Assembly (NCBI GenBank): GCA_964643955.1
Contig: CAZXUO010000001.1
Coordinates: 171,828-235,827, forward strand
Origin: an uncultured Candidatus Saccharibacteria bacterium
Lineage (GTDB): Bacteria > Patescibacteriota > Minisyncoccia > Phycocordibacterales > UBA918
Length of the DNA: 64,000 nucleotides
Direction of reading: 5' to 3'
How positions within the stretch are numbered: the first letter of the stretch is position 1; the number at the start of each line of letters is the position of its first letter. Both the position numbers and the translations under genes were made by a program. Below the pieces are notes generated by a model. That model made no database searches and had not been told where the DNA came from. It saw only the letters and a list, made by a program, of their open reading frames with translations. Shown piece by piece: positions 2,569-50,504 of the stretch.

Positions 2569-3840
2569 CTACTCCATCTTCAAGAACGCAGTCTTCTTCC
2601 CTGCGCGCATAAAAAGAATGCCGCGCGTAAATGTATCGGCAGTAACCATGAAGTCAGGTCCGCTCACAGGCACACCATTGACCGACACCGCACCACTCTC
2701 CACGAGCCGTCGCGCTTCGGATTTTGAAGGCGCAAGCCCTGCATGCACGAGTGCGGAAGATATACCAAAGCCCTGTTCAAGCTCCGTGTTCGTAACACTA
2801 TTAGGGCGCAACGAATTGACGAGCGCATGCAAGTCATCATCTGAGAGATCAGTGACAGAGAAATCTCCGCCAAAAATAATATCTGAGATACGCTCCTCCC
2901 TCCCTGCAGCATCCGCACCATGGACGAGTGACGTTACTGCGCGTGCAAGCGCACGCTGGCCGACACGTTTCTGCGGTTCCTTCGCATGCTCAACCATGAT
3001 CTCGGCAATCTCCGTGCGGGACATCAGGGTAAATATGTTGAGGTACTCCTCGAGACCATCGTCGGGCAAGTTAAACCAAAATTGATAGAACGCGAATGGG
3101 GAAGTCTTCTCCGGATCGAGCCAAACCGCATTCCCTTCTGATTTTCCAAATTTCTTCCCTGTCCGTTTATCTTCAATAATCGGCGTCGTAAGCGCGTACG
3201 CAGATGCGCTTTCCTTCCGTCGGATGAGATCAACACCTGAGATGATATTCGCCCACTGATCAGACCCACCGACCTGCAGGTCGACACCTTCAGTTTTGTA
3301 GAGATGAAGAAAATCGTATCCCTGCAAGAGTGAGTACGAAAACTCCGTAAATGAGAGCGCATCTTCTGCCTCAAGGCGCTTCTTGATGATGTCGCGCTTC
3401 ACGAGCTGATTGACCGTGAAGTGTTTTGCAATGTCGCGCAAAAATTCAATGATGCCGAGCTTCGTAAGCCAATCGGCGTTGTTGAAAATCTCGTACTGTT
3501 TATCACCGAAGATGCCGCTCAATTGCTTTTTGATCGCACTCGTATTTTTTGCAACGGTCTCATCATCGAGGAGCACGCGTTCGCCGCTCTCGCGTGGATC
3601 GCCGATCATACCTGTGCCTCCACCAACGATAAACACAATCTCATGCCCCGCGTCTGCAAGGCGCTTCAAGAGTAATACGGGCACGAGATTACCGACCTGA
3701 AGAGAATCTGCAGTTGGATCGATACCGAGGTACGCCTTTCGCTTTTCAGCGAGAAAAGCATTTGCCTCACCACCCCCTTCCTGACTTATGAGACCTCGAT
3801 CACGGAGATCCTGTGCGATATTTTCGACTGACATAGTCAT
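2569..3840 (-). CDS. tyrS: Tyrosyl-tRNA synthetase
   Basis: Class I aaRS with a HIGH-like region, the motif KFGKSEGNAVWLD (the KMSKS equivalent) and a C-terminal S4 domain. The start is probably at MTMSVENIAQDLRDRGL. The ATG at 3864 is an alternative. Confidence 0.85.
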   Translation of the reverse strand: MTMSVENIAQDLRDRGLISQEGGGEANAFLAEKRKAYLGIDPTADSLQVGNLVPVLLLKRLADAGHEIVFIVGGGTGMIGDPRESGERVLLDDETVAKNTSAIKKQLSGIFGDKQYEIFNNADWLTKLGIIEFLRDIAKHFTVNQLVKRDIIKKRLEAEDALSFTEFSYSLLQGYDFLHLYKTEGVDLQVGGSDQWANIISGVDLIRRKESASAYALTTPIIEDKRTGKKFGKSEGNAVWLDPEKTSPFAFYQFWFNLPDDGLEEYLNIFTLMSRTEIAEIMVEHAKEPQKRVGQRALARAVTSLVHGADAAGREERISDIIFGGDFSVTDLSDDDLHALVNSLRPNSVTNTELEQGFGISSALVHAGLAPSKSEARRLVESGAVSVNGVPVSGPDFMVTADTFTRGILFMRAGKKTAFLKME

Positions 3841-3908
3841 ACTATAGAAGATATGCCGCACCACAGCAAGAAATCAGCCAGATGCTCCTGATGGTATAAT
3901 CGAAACCA

Positions 3909-4817
3909 ATGACTGCTTTTGTACGCCCCCTGAAGCTCGGATCGATCCTCCTCCTTGCCGTCCTCACCTTTTTTGCGTGGACGATCTCCGCCGCTGCCGC
4001 AGGCACTGCGCTTGAGGACGCAACCGTCAATCTCTACTGTCAATTCAAAACAGGGAACAAAACCTTTAGTTCAAGCGGCAGCGGCGTCTTTGTAAGCGAG
4101 CGCGGCGTCATCCTCACCAACGCCCATGTTGCAAAATACTTTCTTCTGCAAGGCAAAGAAGGGAAGACAACCGGCACGTGTTCGGTCCGCACCGGCTCTC
4201 CTGCAAAAGCCACCTACACTGCCTCGGTCCTCTACATCTCTCCACAGTGGCTCGCTTCCTCTGCAGCAAAGACAAGCGGCACTGGTGAGCACGACTTCGC
4301 GCTCCTCTATGTCACCGGCACAACAAAGGGCGCACTTCCCTCCTCATTTCCAAAACTTCTGATGGAGCTCTTTTCTGACGCGCGCGAAGGAGAGACGGTC
4401 GCCATCGCCGGATACCCAACCGAAAAGCTCGATTTCAAAAAAGTACAAAACAAGCTCGCATTTGTGACCGCGTCCTCGACCATCACGAGCATCCGCACCT
4501 TTAGCACAAACGCATCCGCTGATGTTCTCAGCATCGCATCGTCCGCTGCAGGAAGCGCCGGTGTCTCAGGCGGACCAATCATCAATAAGGCTTCAGAAAT
4601 CGTCGGCATTGCAACAGCGCTCAGTAGTGGAAAGAAAGATCGCACGCTTCGAGCGATTACGCTGCCGTACATAAATAAGACGATCCAATCAGAGACAGGA
4701 CTCCCCCTCAATCTCATTCTCTGGGGCGACCTCCACACACGCGCGCTAAAAACAAAAGATTCAATTTCGTCCGAAACCCTCAAAACTCTCCGCACCTCCC
4801 TCTTCAAGAAAAAATAA
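3909..4817 (+). CDS. Secreted trypsin-like serine protease (S1 family, Trypsin_2-like)
   Basis: N-terminal signal/TM segment. Catalytic triad contexts are present: TNAHV, DFALL, and SGVSGGPI (a GDSGGP-like motif). Confidence 0.65.
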   Translation: MTAFVRPLKLGSILLLAVLTFFAWTISAAAAGTALEDATVNLYCQFKTGNKTFSSSGSGVFVSERGVILTNAHVAKYFLLQGKEGKTTGTCSVRTGSPAKATYTASVLYISPQWLASSAAKTSGTGEHDFALLYVTGTTKGALPSSFPKLLMELFSDAREGETVAIAGYPTEKLDFKKVQNKLAFVTASSTITSIRTFSTNASADVLSIASSAAGSAGVSGGPIINKASEIVGIATALSSGKKDRTLRAITLPYINKTIQSETGLPLNLILWGDLHTRALKTKDSISSETLKTLRTSLFKKK

Positions 4818-16146: not shown

Positions 16147-16240
16147 GACCCAACTATGATGCCTGGGAGGCAAATCGAACGGCCGGAGGAGACTTGCTTT
16201 CCGAGGCGGGCTCGCGACCGAGCGAAGCGAGAGTTGTGAG

Positions 16241-16259
16241 TCGATTCCCCGTAGGGTCA
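16241..16259 (+). repeat. Perfect 19-bp direct repeat of the tRNA-Glu 3' end (tcgattccccgtagggtca; original at 16077-16095)
   Basis: Exact match. No cloverleaf can be folded around the copy. Confidence 0.8.
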
Positions 16260-16265
16260 CATGAG

Positions 16266-47265: not shown

Positions 47266-47949
47266 ATGGACTGGTTCTATATCTCAATTGCACTTGCTGC
47301 AGGTTTAGTTCCTGCGCTTTTTTGGCTCTGGTTTTGGCTTCGTGAAGATAAAGCACGACCCGAGCCGCGCACACTCATTATTTCCTCATTCCTCGCAGGC
47401 ATGCTCGTCGTTCCTGCAGTGTTGCCACTACAAAAATTTGCCACACAACGTTTCTCGGGTGACGAACTGATTTTTGTATGGGTCGTTATCGAAGAAGTGC
47501 TGAAATACAGCGCAGCGCTCATTGTTGTGCTTTGGAACAAAGCGGTCGATGAGCCAATCGACGCAATTATCTACATGATTACGATTGCACTCGGCTTCTC
47601 TGCACTTGAGAATGCGCTCTTCATTTTCAATCCATTGGTCGCCGGACAATTTATCGAGTCAATCATCACCGGACATTTCCGTTTTCTTGGTGCAACTTTG
47701 CTTCACGTACTCGCATCCGGCACCGTTGGTGTGTTGATGGCATTTGCATTTTATAAACGAAAAGCGGTGCGTATTGCGTATGCAACGTTTGGGTTATTCA
47801 TAGCCATTGCATTGCATGCGCTATTCAACTTTTCTATAATGGGAGCACGCGGAGAGACTATACTTTCGGTCTTCCTACTTGTCTGGATTGGCATCATCAT
47901 ACTCTTCCTTATTTTTGAAAAAGTTAAGCGCATCGCGCGACCTCGATAA
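47266..47949 (+). CDS. PrsW-family intramembrane protease-like protein
   Basis: A multi-TM protein with an EEVLKY (EExxK) motif and a conserved His-containing helix. Confidence 0.45.
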   Translation: MDWFYISIALAAGLVPALFWLWFWLREDKARPEPRTLIISSFLAGMLVVPAVLPLQKFATQRFSGDELIFVWVVIEEVLKYSAALIVVLWNKAVDEPIDAIIYMITIALGFSALENALFIFNPLVAGQFIESIITGHFRFLGATLLHVLASGTVGVLMAFAFYKRKAVRIAYATFGLFIAIALHALFNFSIMGARGETILSVFLLVWIGIIILFLIFEKVKRIARPR

Positions 47950-47956
47950 CATAGCT

Positions 47957-48442
47957 ATGGCTCGAAAACCTTCATTCATCCAACGTCTCACTGGTGCAGT
48001 GTCTATTCGTGAATATGACGATGAGATAGAAGATGACCTCGATGAGGATATGCGCGACGATGACGCGCGCGAAAGTGCATGGCAAGAGCCTGCACAAGTC
48101 CAAGAAGAAGGTGAACTCCCTATCGATATGTACCAGACCGGAGAAAAGATTGTCATTCGCGCACTCATTGCCGGTGTAAGTCCAGATGACCTCGATATAG
48201 CGATCACACGCGACATGGTGACTATCAAAGGAGGACGCGAGGAAAACCGCGAGGCACCGGACGAAGACTATTACCATCGCGAGCTCTACTGGGGTGGATT
48301 TTCACGCACCATTCTCCTTCCCGAAGAGATTTTGATTGACGAAGCAGAAGCAAAAGAGAAGCACGGTATGCTCGAAATTATTTTGCCAAAAGTAGACAAG
48401 GACCGCAGTACGAGACTCAAGGTAAAGACAAAGGCGGGATAA
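47957..48442 (+). CDS. Hsp20/alpha-crystallin small heat-shock protein
   Basis: Alpha-crystallin domain (DMYQTGEKIVIRA...GMLEIILPK) with an acidic N-terminus. Confidence 0.8.
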   Translation: MARKPSFIQRLTGAVSIREYDDEIEDDLDEDMRDDDARESAWQEPAQVQEEGELPIDMYQTGEKIVIRALIAGVSPDDLDIAITRDMVTIKGGREENREAPDEDYYHRELYWGGFSRTILLPEEILIDEAEAKEKHGMLEIILPKVDKDRSTRLKVKTKAG

Positions 48443-48447
48443 GAAAT

Positions 48448-48482
48448 AATAAAACCGCCGGCCTAAAGGCCGGCGGTTTTTT
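48448..48482 (+). terminator. Terminator (aaaaccgccggcc taaa ggccggcggtttttt)
   Basis: Perfect 11-bp stem. Confidence 0.8.
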
Positions 48483-48483
48483 G

Positions 48484-48502
48484 GTGCTTGGGGCCGGGTT
48501 CG
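48484..48502 (-). repeat. 19-bp direct copy of the tRNA-Phe 3' end (gtgcttggggccgggttcg; original at 48670-48688)
   Basis: Exact repeat lying 168 bp beyond the tRNA 3' end. Confidence 0.8.
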
Positions 48503-48670
48503 GTCACGAATCACTAAGTCTTTTGTTCACTTCGTTCCAAAAGACTAAGTGTTCGCGACCCCACCTTGGCGCTTCATCCCGCAACGCGGGCGCACCTCCG
48601 GCTTTCTCACCCAGCCAGCAATACATGAGAATAAAAAAGGCCTGCTCGAAGCAGGTCTTTTTTATTCTTG

Positions 48671-48743
48671 TGCTTGGGGCCGGGTTCGAACCGGCGACCC
48701 CTTCCTCTTCAGGGAAGTGCTCTACCAACTGAGCTACCCAAGC
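48671..48743 (-). tRNA. tRNA-Phe (anticodon GAA)
   Basis: Reverse complement is GCTTGGGTAGCTCAGTTGGTAGAGC...CTGAAGA...GGTTCGAACCCGGCCCCAAGCA. Confidence 0.85.
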
Positions 48744-48796
48744 GTCGCTCTATGCTATCGCAAAAAGAGCCTCTAAACAAGGCAAAAAAGCCTTAT

Positions 48797-49087
48797 TTAC
48801 TCCATCATCGAGTCAAAAGCCTTGAACCCCGGCAATTCCCCTATTCCGAGACGAAACTGCTCGTACGAGCCTCCAAAGGCCTCAAAATAGGGCTCAAGGA
48901 CGTAGAAGTAGACTGCAAATGGCAGACCGATGAGGAGCGCAAACCAGATGATCCTGATCCAAAAATCAATAATGCTATTACGGTAGAGTTTCTTAACGAG
49001 AGCAGTGTTCTCGCGCACCAAATCGCTGTTCTCCTTGATTAAACGACCAAGCTCACTGTGAATATCAGATTCCATAGTGCTATTCAT
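48797..49087 (-). CDS. Small hypothetical membrane protein
   Basis: ORF with two TM helices. Confidence 0.3.
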   Translation of the reverse strand: MNSTMESDIHSELGRLIKENSDLVRENTALVKKLYRNSIIDFWIRIIWFALLIGLPFAVYFYVLEPYFEAFGGSYEQFRLGIGELPGFKAFDSMME

Positions 49088-49217
49088 TATATCAAAGCAG
49101 CTCTCATTTAAGCCAAAAGTTGTTCAGTAGCATTGTTAAAAAGCAGATACTTGACTTTTCTTGAAATTTATAGTTAAATCCTCGACAGGAAACGCACCTA
49201 TACACGGAGGATCTCGC

Positions 49218-49916
49218 GTGGAAACATCACGCATCTATGGGTCGAAGAGCAATCTGCGACCCATCTACGTCATGCATGAGGAGGGTCTGGAGTCATCACA
49301 TCTCCAGGCCGTCCTCGATGGTGTCTCTGCGGTCTGCAGGATCGCGGGCGTCGCCGACAAGGTCGGGATCCACAATCTCGGCGCTTGGAGGGGTTCCGGT
49401 TGGCGCGCGGGCAACACGCTCACCAGCTGGAACAGCATCGACTGGTATCTTGCGCATACGCGCAACGCCAGTCGGAACGACCGCCAGCTCCACGGCGGCC
49501 ATCTCATGCAACTGCTCTACAACGAGCCGTGGCAGGAGCTTGCGCCGCACTACGATATCGTGGTGACCCATTCGGATCTGTACGACGACGGGTGCAACTT
49601 CTGCATCGGTCTCGCGATCCGTGGGCTCGGCACGGTCATCTCGACCAACCGGTTCATGGGGCTGGATGCCCGCGCCGCGCGCGAGTGCATCATCACAGAG
49701 ACAATGCACGAGGTCGGTCACGTCTTCGGGCTCGTTCCCGAAGATCGCACCGACAACGTGGAGATGTCGCTTGGGTTGCACTGCACCAACCGGTGCATCA
49801 TGCGGCAGGGGCTCTCGGTGCCCCATGACTGGGTCACGATTACGAACGATCGGCTTGCGGGACATGAGTTCTGCTCGACCTGTCGTCGTGATCTCCGTCG
49901 TTTCTTCTGTACCTAG
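49218..49916 (+). CDS. Archaemetzincin-like zinc metallopeptidase (M54-like), high-GC
   Basis: HEVGHVFG, then GLHCTNRCIM (GxHCxxxCxM), then CSTC about 23 aa later. Upstream is CNFCIGLAIRGLGTVISTNRF. A GTG start is preceded by GGAGGA. Local GC is about 65% against about 48% for the flanks. Confidence 0.55.
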   Translation: METSRIYGSKSNLRPIYVMHEEGLESSHLQAVLDGVSAVCRIAGVADKVGIHNLGAWRGSGWRAGNTLTSWNSIDWYLAHTRNASRNDRQLHGGHLMQLLYNEPWQELAPHYDIVVTHSDLYDDGCNFCIGLAIRGLGTVISTNRFMGLDARAARECIITETMHEVGHVFGLVPEDRTDNVEMSLGLHCTNRCIMRQGLSVPHDWVTITNDRLAGHEFCSTCRRDLRRFFCT

Positions 49917-49974
49917 CGAGCTTCGGCTCAACCCGCTACGTCTTCGGACCTCTGGCGGGCTTTCTTTTGTCTTA

Positions 49975-49996
49975 GTGCCCTCGGCAGGAATCGAAC
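49975..49996 (-). repeat. 22-bp direct copy of the tRNA-Arg 3' end (gtgccctcggcaggaatcgaac; original at 50116-50137)
   Basis: Exact repeat lying 118 bp beyond the tRNA 3' end. Confidence 0.8.
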
Positions 49997-50113
49997 ATTA
50001 CATGTTCAGTACAGGTTGCCGATAATTTTTTCACACGTTCAAAATTATCTGGCAACCTTTTCGATTCCGTGCGACCAACACAAAAAGCCGGACGGGAGTC
50101 CGACTCTTTATGT

Positions 50114-50188
50114 TGGTGCCCTCGGCAGGAATCGAACCTACATCTTTCCCTTAGGACGGGACTGCTCTATCCATTGAGCTACGAAGGC
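50114..50188 (-). tRNA. tRNA-Arg (anticodon CCT), CCA encoded
   Basis: Acceptor GCCTTCG/CGAGGGC with one G-U pair. D-arm GCTCAATGGATAGAGC. Anticodon loop GTCCTAA. T-arm GTAGGTTCGATTCCTGC. The anticodon stem has one mismatch. Confidence 0.7.
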
Positions 50189-50221
50189 AAAACATCGCTC
50201 GGTGGTTCGTTCAAGCGTACT

Positions 50222-50262
50222 TTAGCACAAAACCGCCTCGCGGATGCGAGGCGGTTTTGTGC
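50222..50262. terminator. Bidirectional terminator (aaaaccgcctcgc ggat gcgaggcggtttt)
   Basis: Perfect stem. Confidence 0.8.
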
Positions 50263-50267
50263 GTACC

Positions 50268-50504
50268 TTATGCCATTCCGAGCAGCTCTTTTACCTTTCC
50301 CTGATCAAAACCAACCACCACATCATCACCAATCTTGATGACGGGTACGCCCATTTGTCCGGTCATCTCGATCATCTCCTTTCGTTTTTCAAGATCCGAA
50401 GCAACATCGAAATCCTGAAATGATACGTTATTTTCGGTGAAAAATTCTTTAGCAGCGTGGCAGAAGTGACAAGATGGCGTGCTGTAGATAGTTACTTGTT
50501 CCAT
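50268..50504 (-). CDS. Glutaredoxin-like protein (NrdH/thioredoxin fold, CHFC active site)
   Basis: TIYSTPSCHFCHAAKEFF...GVPVIKIGD motifs. Confidence 0.65.
   Translation of the reverse strand: MEQVTIYSTPSCHFCHAAKEFFTENNVSFQDFDVASDLEKRKEMIEMTGQMGVPVIKIGDDVVVGFDQGKVKELLGMA

What the first reader, a model, noticed from the sequence alone, without database searches (positions are those of the whole stretch)
49200..49960. High-GC archaemetzincin-like gene wedged between the tRNA-Phe and tRNA-Arg footprints; likely horizontal acquisition
GC jumps from about 48% to about 65% exactly across this gene. The protein carries CNFCIGLA...TNRF, then HEVGHVFG, then GLHCTNRCIM, then CSTC. That matches the archaemetzincin HExxHxxGxxHCx4CxM...CxxC zinc-site signature, apart from a 15-aa insertion and a three-residue rather than four-residue spacer between the two Cys. 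Archaemetzincins are mainly archaeal and eukaryotic. The flanking tRNA genes with att-like repeats support an island origin.
Basis: partly seen in the sequence, partly recalled or inferred. Interest (0 to 1): 0.6.

Follow-up and report, generated by a model that had tools for sequence, protein, structure and literature searches.

The report
Acquired metalloprotease gene beside tRNA-Arg
A roughly 1 kb stretch of foreign, GC-rich DNA next to a tRNA-Arg gene in an ultra-small (Patescibacteria) bacterium carries one intact zinc-protease gene of an undescribed archaemetzincin-like branch; it is a real but fairly ordinary case of gene transfer at a tRNA hotspot.

Summary
Window 49218-49916 (+) encodes a 232-aa protein in the GC-richest 700 bp of the window (0.62 against 0.49; GC3 0.78 against host 0.49±0.07). 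It passes Pfam Peptidase_M54, and its best sequence and fold matches are solved archaemetzincins. It is not a canonical member. A 14-aa loop splits HExxHxxG from the third His, and it misses the NCBIfam cut-off.

This long-loop branch (about 180 clusters at 50% identity) lies mainly in Patescibacteria (CPR) and DPANN. The window's closest relatives are CPR sequences, so a direct archaeal origin is not supported.

The assembly is sound: an independent contig matches 100% across both GC boundaries.

The gene lies in a variable slot 3' of tRNA-Arg(CCT).
- Two contigs that are 99.6% identical up to the tRNA end differ there: one has the cassette, the other a 54-bp spacer.
- More distant relatives carry unrelated genes in the same slot.
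- Copies of the tRNA-Arg 3' end bracket the cassette: an exact 22-mer and a degenerate 15/18 copy.
- No recombinase remains here, but a 79%-identical copy sits beside a large serine recombinase in three metagenomes.
- dN/dS of 0.23 shows the gene is maintained.

Verdict: a decayed tRNA-linked islet carrying a probably active protease of unknown substrate. Interest is moderate to low.

The parts
48484..48502 (-). Partial copy (19 nt, exact) of the 3' end of tRNA-Phe, 186 bp beyond the intact gene. It is an older footprint of an event at tRNA-Phe and is not part of the protease cassette.
   Evidence: The close relative L166 also has it in degenerate form.
48670..48743 (-). tRNA-Phe(GAA)
   Evidence: ARAGORN; Rfam tRNA model, 72 bits.
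48797..49087 (-). Host ORF of 96 aa (92 aa from the second ATG), function unknown. It marks the host side of the slot.
   Evidence: 98.9% aa identity to the homologue in the cassette-free relative L166. No Pfam or PHROGs hit.
49151..49179 (+). Promoter-like element: TTGACT, 17 nt, TTAAAT. It is AT-rich and lies upstream of the cassette's 5' UTR.
   Evidence: Read from the sequence. Conserved in the sister species L167, and L006 has TTGACT-17-TATAAT at the same place. The consensus scan did not flag it because position 2 of the -10 hexamer is T.
49180..49197 (+). Degenerate direct repeat of the tRNA-Arg 3' end, CCTCGACAGGAAACGCAC (15 of 18 matching). Candidate old attachment-site remnant at the far end of the cassette.
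   Evidence: three matches in the window against 0.04 expected by chance. L167 has a complementary remnant, AGTGCCTAGGAACCGCAC, at the same place.
49206..49210 (+). Shine-Dalgarno sequence GGAGG
   Evidence: conserved in L167.
49218..49916 (+). CDS of 232 aa: long-loop archaemetzincin-like (M54-like) zinc metallopeptidase. Key residues are H164, E165, H168, H188, C189, C193, M195, C219 and C222.
   Evidence: dN/dS = 0.23 against the L167 orthologue.
49932..49972 (+). Intrinsic-terminator-like hairpin followed by CUUUCUUUUGUCU
   Evidence: -20.2 kcal/mol, z = -2.9. Similar hairpins followed by T-rich tracts follow the gene in L167, L006 and L001.
49975..49996 (+). Exact 22-nt direct repeat of the tRNA-Arg 3' end, identical to 50116-50137. 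It lacks the encoded CCA.
49997..50113 (-). 117-nt strongly structured spacer holding a terminator hairpin for tRNA-Arg and a hairpin with 17-bp arms. It is absent from L167 and L166. Interpreted as the remnant of a second event at the same site.
   Evidence: z = -6.5.
50114..50188 (-). tRNA-Arg(CCT). Its 3' end faces the cassette.
   Evidence: ARAGORN; Rfam.

Best explanation
Window ~49090-50113 is a small, decayed, horizontally acquired islet in the variable slot immediately 3' of tRNA-Arg(CCT). The host is a Patescibacteria (Parcubacteria/Paceibacteria-type) genome.

**Shown**
- The islet carries one intact, self-contained gene: a promoter-like TTGACT-17-TTAAAT, GGAGG, a GTG start at 49218 and an intrinsic terminator.
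- The product is a 232-aa archaemetzincin-like protein.
- The segment is compositionally foreign and correctly assembled.
- It is present or absent between contigs that are 99.6% identical up to the tRNA end.
- Other cargo replaces it in more distant relatives.
- It is bracketed by copies of the tRNA-Arg 3' end.
- It is under purifying selection.

**Inferred**
- It entered by site-specific recombination at the tRNA 3' end, before the window's species split from its sister species.
- The donor pool was other Patescibacteria or a GC-rich mobile element circulating among them. A 79%-identical copy lies between 264-bp inverted repeats beside a large serine recombinase.
- The recombinase was then lost from this locus.
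- A second event at the same site left the exact 22-nt repeat and the 117-nt spacer.
- The cassette-free and cassette-bearing alleles have since been exchanged between strains by homologous recombination, or the cassette was lost.

**Inferred for the protein**
- It is a cytoplasmic zinc endo- or aminopeptidase.
- H164, H168 and H188 hold the catalytic zinc, and E165 is the general base.
- M195 forms the Met-turn.
- C189, C193, C219 and C222 hold a structural zinc.
- The family-specific 14-aa loop lies beside the active site and probably shapes or gates substrate access.
- The substrate is unknown.
For: **Composition.** GC is 0.61 and GC3 is 0.78, against host GC3 of 0.49 ± 0.07. This is the highest GC peak in the window.

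**Assembly.** Logan contig L005 is 100% identical over 48707-50173.

**Slot variability.**
- L166 and L167 are 99.6% identical over 3200 bp up to the tRNA-Arg 3' end. After that L166 has 54 bp and L167 has a 925-bp cassette.
- L168 carries an unrelated 256-aa ORF in the same slot, and L170 carries a Fic gene.

**Repeats.** There is an exact 22-mer and a 15/18 copy, against 0.04 expected by chance. L167 has a complementary remnant.

**Age.** The window and L167 copies are 83% identical at the nucleotide level. Host genes between the two are 75-88% identical.

**Selection.** dN/dS = 0.23.

**Protein.**
- Pfam M54 is above its gathering score. NCBIfam archmetzin gives E = 1e-14.
- Profile search of PDB sequences gives AfAmzA at E = 6e-11, with the His, Cys and Met positions aligned.
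- The AlphaFold2 model has pLDDT 95.4, and its top Foldseek hits are the AmzA structures 2x7m, 4axq and 3zvs.
- H164, E165, H168, H188, C189, C193 and C219 are invariant in 57 homologues.

**Donor pool.**
- The closest relatives are in Patescibacteria contigs.
- The L086, L178 and L179 element, with a serine recombinase, ORF165 and the protease gene, was recovered in three samples. Its segment between the inverted repeats has GC of 0.56-0.62.
- The gene is GC-richer than its host in many other loci.

**Host identity.** Named LepA relatives are Patescibacteria, Parcubacteria, Minisyncoccia and Kaiserbacteria.

**Background.** Most detected gene transfers in Patescibacteria are between Patescibacteria (PMC12455944).
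Against: - No integrase or recombinase lies in or next to the islet in the window, so the integration mechanism is inferred from footprints only.
- The degenerate repeat (49180-49197) lies between the promoter-like element and the ribosome-binding site. That is about 40-90 bp inside the point where homology with the cassette-free allele breaks (49088), not at the junction itself.
- The cassette-free allele in L166 is not what simple excision would leave. Its 54-bp spacer is at best about 60-65% similar, by eye, to the corresponding part of the occupied allele. The direction of the change (gain, loss or allele swap) is therefore unresolved.
- Homology with the copies in other contexts (L006, L086) stops at the coding region. 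No conserved element ends define a mobile unit.
- Catalytic activity is not shown. Two solved archaemetzincins were inactive in vitro (PMC3427221).
- The predicted model could not be inspected at the atomic level, so the role of H188 as third ligand rests on alignment.
Confidence: 0.72

Rival explanations
1. The gene is native and vertically inherited, and its family simply has a high GC content. On this view there was no transfer into this lineage, and the cassette-free relative merely deleted the gene.
For: The window and L167 copies have diverged as much as the host genes. The gene is under purifying selection. Family members are somewhat GC-richer than their hosts in many genomes.
Against: - The excess lies at third codon positions (0.78, z = 3.9), so it does not come from amino-acid content.
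- More distant relatives carry unrelated genes in the same slot.
- Copies of the tRNA 3' end bracket the gene.
- The family sits in a different neighbourhood in nearly every genome.
- The L166 spacer is not a subset of the occupied allele.
Confidence: 0.1
2. The gene was transferred directly from a classical archaeon (or a eukaryote).
For: Canonical archaemetzincins are mostly archaeal (PMC3427221). DPANN archaea and one Methanosarcinales genome bin carry long-loop homologues at 36-47% identity.
Against: - The nearest relatives (62-83% identity) are all in Patescibacteria contigs or unassigned metagenome contigs.
- In a neighbour-joining tree the archaeal long-loop sequences form a subclade nested among Patescibacteria sequences. 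Canonical archaeal proteins lie outside the whole branch.
- Canonical proteins lack the 14-aa loop.
Confidence: 0.04
3. The protein is a non-proteolytic archaemetzincin-like protein, either a regulatory or scaffold protein like Myxococcus CarG or an inactive relic.
For: There is a weak hit to NCBIfam Myxo_non_zincin. The canonical HExxHxxGxxH motif is interrupted. AfAmzA and MkAmzA showed no activity in vitro.
Against: - CarG has Gln in place of the catalytic Glu. Here E165, all three His, the Met and the Cys residues are invariant or nearly so in 57 homologues.
- The Myxo_non_zincin score is 21.6 bits against a cut-off of 250.
- dN/dS = 0.23.
- AMZ-tk is an active protease (PMC4681839).
Confidence: 0.12
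4. The high-GC block is an assembly chimera joined at the repeated tRNA ends.
For: Repeats of 22 nt flank the block. The Logan assembly of one run broke at the two tRNA genes.
Against: The Logan contig spans both GC boundaries and both repeats at 100% identity. A sister species from another assembly has the same gene in the same slot and orientation, with the same left junction.
Confidence: 0.02

Closest known systems
Archaemetzincins AmzA of Archaeoglobus fulgidus and Methanopyrus kandleri (MEROPS M54; PDB 3zvs, 4axq, 2x7m)
   Same: - Best sequence and fold matches: profile E = 6e-11, and Foldseek E = 1e-9 with TM-score 0.78 on the target.
- HExxH with Glu, a His immediately before the first Cys, the C-x3-C-x-M Met-turn motif and a C-terminal CxxC all align.
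- Small, single-domain protein with no signal peptide evident.
   Different: - A 14-aa loop lies between HExxHxxGL and the third His, so the first-His-to-HC distance is 24 residues against 10.
- The spacer between the Met-turn and the CxxC is about 7 residues longer.
- The protein is about 40-70 residues longer, mostly at the N-terminus.
- It shares only about 21% identity with these structures.
- It scores below the NCBIfam family cut-off.
AMZ-tk (TK0512) of Thermococcus kodakarensis
   Same: It is an outlying archaemetzincin shown to be a zinc-dependent protease (PMC4681839). That shows divergent members of the family can be active.
   Different: The paper states that AMZ-tk has the contiguous archaemetzincin motif; the loop is absent from the Thermococcus homologue read here. 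It is archaeal, and no close sequence relationship was seen.
CarG of Myxococcus xanthus (NCBIfam NF033824, non-proteolytic archaemetzincin-like)
   Same: It is a bacterial archaemetzincin-like protein with the Cys4 zinc site.
   Different: CarG has Gln in place of the catalytic Glu and acts in transcriptional regulation. Here the Glu is invariant, and the hit is far below the cut-off.
tRNA-linked genomic islands and islets (integrase-mediated insertion at a tRNA 3' end, often stacked in tandem)
   Same: - Position at the 3' end of a tRNA.
- Direct repeats of the tRNA end.
- Foreign composition.
- Strain-level presence or absence.
- Two stacked footprints.
   Different: It has only one gene and no integrase. 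The repeat at the far end is degenerate and does not sit exactly at the junction with the cassette-free allele.

Membership tests
Archaemetzincin / Peptidase M54 (Pfam PF07998) | Score at or above the Pfam gathering threshold | tested here: met
   28.6 bits against 24.4. Only model positions 98-194 of 194 match, that is, the C-terminal half.
Archaemetzincin (NCBIfam NF033823 archmetzin) | Score at or above the curated cut-off | tested here: not met
   54.6 bits against a cut-off of 145, although E = 1.3e-14.
Archaemetzincin / metzincin | HExxH with catalytic Glu | tested here: met
   H164, E165 and H168 are invariant in 57 homologues.
Archaemetzincin / metzincin | Contiguous HExxHxxGxxH, with the third zinc ligand three residues after the Gly (PMC3427221) | tested here: not met
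   The sequence is HEVGHVFGL + 14 aa + LH188C. Position G171+3 is Pro. H188 aligns with the canonical third His only across a 14-residue gap.
Archaemetzincin | Four conserved Cys forming the Cys4 zinc site (HC..C.M ... CxxC) | tested here: met
   C189, C193 and C219 are invariant, and C222 is at least 90% conserved. They align with AfAmzA C128, C132, C151 and C154. Metal binding itself is untested.
Metzincin | Met-turn methionine after the zinc site | tested here: met
   M195 in C193-I-M195 is at least 90% conserved and aligns with the CVM of AfAmzA.
Archaemetzincin | AmzA-type fold | tested here: met
   The AlphaFold2 model has pLDDT 95.4. The top five Foldseek PDB hits are all archaemetzincin or M54 structures. 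This is a prediction, not an experiment.
Archaemetzincin | Zinc-dependent peptidase activity | not testable with these tools
   Requires purified protein.
CarG-like non-proteolytic archaemetzincin (NF033824) | Family score; catalytic Glu replaced by Gln | tested here: not met
   21.6 bits against a cut-off of 250. The Glu is present and invariant.
tRNA-targeted integrative island | Lies at the 3' end of a tRNA gene and is flanked by direct repeats of that end | tested here: met
   There is an exact 22-nt repeat at 49975-49996 and a degenerate 15/18 copy at 49180-49197, against 0.04 expected by chance. The degenerate copy is not exactly at the junction.
tRNA-targeted integrative island | Encodes its own integrase or recombinase | tested here: not met
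   The only ORFs between the two tRNA genes are ORF96 and the protease gene. Related copies L086 and L178 lie next to a large serine recombinase.
tRNA-targeted integrative island | Foreign composition, and presence or absence among close relatives | tested here: met
   GC3 z = 3.9. L166 (no cassette) and L167 (cassette) are 99.6% identical in the flank.

The most novel reading that the evidence does not exclude
The long-loop archaemetzincin-like genes may be the recurrent cargo of a family of very small, GC-rich mobile elements. These would be driven by large serine recombinases and would target tRNA 3' ends. They would shuttle between Patescibacteria and DPANN archaea, that is, across domains among ultra-small episymbionts. 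The protease would provide a selectable function tied to that lifestyle, such as proteostasis or processing of host-derived peptides. The short footprints at three of the five tRNA genes in this window would then be scars of frequent traffic by such elements.
Probability: 0.1. Interest if true: 0.55.

Novelty: new variant of a known kind. Interest (0 to 1): 0.3.

Why it matters
The physiological role of archaemetzincins is still unknown. This work defines a compact sub-branch of about 180 clusters at 50% identity. It has a conserved 14-aa loop next to the zinc site, occurs mainly in Patescibacteria and DPANN, and is under purifying selection. That gives a defined target for biochemistry.

The locus is also a clean, small example of gene flux in streamlined Patescibacteria genomes. 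It is a tRNA-Arg slot that differs between contigs 99.6% identical up to the tRNA end and holds different cargo in related species.

Neither point overturns current understanding. Transfer among Patescibacteria and tRNA-linked islets are both well known.

Tried and rejected
- **Conserved mobile-element ends.** I compared the upstream and downstream DNA of the window with L167, L006, L086 and L001. Outside the sister species, homology stops at the coding region. Only a generic promoter-like motif and terminators are shared.
- **A common miniature element behind the three tRNA footprints (Glu, Phe, Arg).** The three segments are not similar to each other.
- **RNA families.** An Rfam search of 48300-50400 found only the two tRNAs above threshold.
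- **Phage or defence origin.** There were no PHROGs or PADLOC hits. IMG/VR gave only one weak partial hit.
- **The 17-mer from the 117-nt spacer.** A scan of IMG/VR gave 4 hits. I estimate this is about what chance would give for a 17-mer in a collection of that size, so I did not pursue it.
- **Simple excision as the origin of the cassette-free allele.** The L166 spacer does not match what recombination between the repeats would leave.
- **L086 as a circular element.** There is no terminal overlap, and the recombinase reading frame does not continue across the contig ends.
- **The antisense ORF 49296..49931 (211 aa).** I rejected it as the shadow ORF expected in GC-rich coding DNA. All homology and conservation lie on the + strand.
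- **AFDB fold search.** That library was not available.
Full report
**1. What is in the sequence**

Window 49161..49916 (+) is an open reading frame. The likely start is GTG at 49218, 7 nt after GGAGG at 49206-49210. That gives 232 aa, identical to the public protein P0001.

The gene is followed by a stable hairpin and a T-rich tract at 49932-49972 (-20.2 kcal/mol, z = -2.9). It is preceded by TTGACT-17-TTAAAT at 49151-49179. I read this as a promoter, although the consensus scan did not flag it because position 2 of the -10 hexamer is T.

tRNA-Phe(GAA) lies at 48670-48743 (-) and tRNA-Arg(CCT) at 50114-50188 (-).

**2. The composition anomaly is real**

- 200-bp windows read 0.60-0.66 across the gene and 0.39-0.50 on either side.
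- It is the GC-richest 700 bp of the 64-kb window (0.62, z = 3.5).
- A two-change-point fit gives 49304-49960 (0.627 against 0.464).
- Third-codon-position GC is 0.78, against 0.494 ± 0.073 for 35 host ORFs (z = 3.9).
- The excess is at synonymous positions, so amino-acid content does not explain it.

**3. It is not an assembly artefact**

A Logan contig assembled from run SRR12762304 (L005, 1467 bp) is 100% identical to window 48707-50173. It runs from inside tRNA-Phe to inside tRNA-Arg, across both GC boundaries and both repeats. It may derive from the same reads as the window, but it comes from a different assembler. A sister species from another assembly (L167) has the same gene in the same slot and orientation.

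**4. What the protein is**

*Family hits*
- Pfam Peptidase_M54 is above its gathering score (28.6 against 24.4 bits), matching only the C-terminal half of the model.
- NCBIfam archmetzin gives E = 1.3e-14, but 54.6 bits against a cut-off of 145.
- The best solved relatives are the archaemetzincins of A. fulgidus and M. kandleri: single-sequence E = 2e-7, and profile E = 6e-11.

*Conserved residues.* An alignment of 57 homologues has H164, E165, H168, H188, C189, C193 and C219 invariant. M195 and C222 are at least 90% conserved.

*Predicted structure.* An AlphaFold2 model built on that alignment is confident (pLDDT 95.4, pTM 0.92). Its five best Foldseek matches in the PDB are all archaemetzincin or M54 structures. 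The top one is 2x7m (E = 1e-9, TM-score 0.78 on the target).

*Comparison with the published motif.* The fingerprint is HEXXHXXGXXHCX4CXMX17CXXC. Three His bind the catalytic zinc and four Cys bind a structural zinc (PMC3427221 and PMC4681839). This protein has every ligand, but a 14-residue loop separates HEVGHVFGL from LH188C. The distance from the first His to the HC pair is 24 residues, against 10 in canonical proteins. In the model the loop is ordered and partly in beta conformation.

*The 'three rather than four' Cys spacer is not a difference.* AfAmzA has C128 and C132 (HCSNNC). Both spacings occur among canonical members.

*Inferred mechanism*
- H164, H168 and H188 hold the catalytic zinc, and E165 is the general base.
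- M195 forms the Met-turn.
- C189, C193, C219 and C222 hold the structural zinc.
- The protein is cytoplasmic, because no hydrophobic N-terminus is visible.
- The substrate is unknown, as it is for the whole family.

*Rejected alternative.* A CarG-like non-catalytic role is unlikely, because the Glu is invariant and the NF033824 hit is negligible.

**5. Which branch of the family**

A word-indexed search found 66 homologues of about 230 aa at 41-100% identity over the best local alignment. The few with organism names are Pacebacteria/Paceibacterota and one Woesearchaeota.

In species-representative genomes the long-loop form (distance 23-27) occurs in these groups:
- Patescibacteria: Paceibacterota, Saccharibacteria, Moraniibacteriota, Berkelbacteria, Levybacteria, Uhrbacteria, Magasanikbacteria and Parcubacteria.
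- DPANN: Woesearchaeota and Nanoarchaeia.
- A few other genome bins.

Thermococcus, Archaeoglobus, Asgard archaea, Actinomycetes and Cytophagia have the canonical distance of 10.

An exhaustive profile search of 1.84 billion cluster representatives found 180 at E ≤ 1e-30 and 1155 at E ≤ 1e-3, so this is a small branch.

In a neighbour-joining tree without support values:
- the long-loop proteins form one clade apart from the canonical ones;
- the DPANN sequences are nested among Patescibacteria;
- the window's protein groups with L167, L086 and L006, and then with Saccharibacteria and Pacebacteria sequences.

I found no paper that mentions archaemetzincins together with these organisms.

**6. 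The host and the slot**

LepA in the window is closest to proteins named Patescibacteria group, Parcubacteria, Minisyncoccia and Kaiserbacteria (74-79% identity).

Two contigs from a sister species are decisive. L166 (JGI) and L167 (NCBI GCA_964494235.1) are 99.6% identical over 3200 bp, right up to the 3' end of tRNA-Arg. Beyond that point they differ:
- L166 has a 54-bp spacer and then ORF92.
- L167 has a 925-bp cassette with the protease gene and then ORF92.

The window is 75-88% identical to both in host genes, and 83% identical to L167 in the protease gene. The cassette was therefore probably already present before the two species split. dS is 0.49 and dN/dS is 0.23, so it has been kept by selection.

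In more distant relatives (LepA 84% identical) the same slot holds other cargo:
- L168 has an unrelated 256-aa ORF.
- L170 has a Fic-domain gene.

The tRNA-Arg 3' flank is thus a hotspot for variable genes.

**7. Footprints**

The last 22 nt of tRNA-Arg (50116-50137) recur exactly at 49975-49996, just after the protease terminator. A third, degenerate copy (15 of 18) lies at 49180-49197, just before the ribosome-binding site. A pattern search finds these three sites and expects 0.04 by chance in the window. L167 has a complementary remnant at the same place.

L167 lacks the 117-nt spacer and the exact repeat. There the tRNA joins the cassette directly and has no encoded CCA, like the window's internal repeat copy. 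I read the window as two stacked events: an older one that brought the cassette, and a younger one that left a strongly structured 117-nt remnant (z = -6.5).

Three weaknesses remain:
- There is no recombinase gene here.
- The degenerate repeat lies about 90 bp inside the break in homology with L166.
- The L166 spacer is not what excision would leave.

Gain, loss and allele exchange therefore cannot be told apart for the L166/L167 difference.

**8. A candidate vehicle**

The 79%-identical copy on L086 has GC of 0.61. It follows a 165-aa ORF of unknown function. Both genes lie between 264-bp inverted repeats that are 98% complementary. On one side is a large serine recombinase (Recombinase and Zn_ribbon_recom domains). 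On the other is a fragment of a Resolvase N-terminal domain.

The ORF165 and recombinase parts recur, with 100% identical protein sequences over the parts held, in contigs from two other samples, L178 and L179.

Other copies also point to mobility:
- One sits next to a DNA methylase on the 3' side of tRNA-Ser(GGA) (L177).
- L001/L007 lie beside tRNA-Ser(GGA), L009 beside tRNA-Asn and L180 beside tRNA-Ser(GCT).
- The gene is GC-richer than its surroundings in many loci, by up to +0.125.

This pattern fits repeated transfer within Patescibacteria, in line with a published survey (PMC12455944). The family is essentially absent from viral contigs and from the phage and defence libraries.

**9. Verdict**

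It is wrong in implying an archaeal source and in one motif detail.

The feature is a decayed, single-gene, tRNA-linked islet. It carries a maintained and probably active zinc peptidase of an undescribed long-loop branch of the archaemetzincin family. It is a variant of known things rather than a new kind of system.

Noticed in passing
window 16239-16260; 48484-48505; 49973-49994: Three of the five tRNA genes in the window (Glu, Phe, Arg) have a partial copy of their own 3' end 141-186 bp downstream. Each intervening segment starts with a terminator hairpin. The three segments are not similar to each other. They look like scars of repeated integration at tRNA genes.
   Followed up: partly
L167 11526-12206 (NCBI GCA_964494235.1, CAZBQV010000009.1): The gene called in the collection's gene table for the sister species is a 226-aa ORF on the strand opposite the protease gene. 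It is a shadow ORF of the GC-rich coding region. The real 232-aa gene on the other strand is not called.
   Followed up: yes
L086 1-4192; L178; L179: A unit recovered from three metagenomes carries a large serine recombinase, a 165-aa ORF with no known family, and the protease gene. In L086 the last two genes lie between 264-bp inverted repeats (1134-1397 and 3247-3510). A Resolvase N-terminal fragment follows at 3823-4077.
   Followed up: partly
L168 9159-9929; L170 10189-11343: In more distant relatives the same tRNA-Arg(CCT) slot holds different cargo. L168 has a 256-aa ORF with no family hit. L170 has a Fic-domain gene.
   Followed up: partly
window 49075-49100 versus L166 3245-3260: The host ORF next to the cassette has a GGAGGG ribosome-binding site in the cassette-free allele. 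In the window and in L167 that sequence is replaced, and a TATAAT overlaps the first ATG. Expression signals for this ORF therefore differ between the alleles and may give a leaderless transcript.
   Followed up: no
window 47266-48442; L001 5856-9812; L177 2968-4476: Copies of the protease gene often lie near proteostasis genes. In the window these are a PrsW protease and HSP20. In the Saccharibacteria-type loci they are an M48 peptidase, LemA and GroES/GroEL. This could be coincidence or a hint about function.
   Followed up: no
window 49997-50113: The 117-nt spacer between the two tRNA-Arg end copies folds very stably (z = -6.5). It contains a hairpin with 17-bp arms (AGGTTGCCGATAATTTT / AAAATTATCTGGCAACCT) that could be a recombinase-binding site. 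A search for the 17-mer in viral contigs gave only 4 hits, about what I estimate chance would give.
   Followed up: partly
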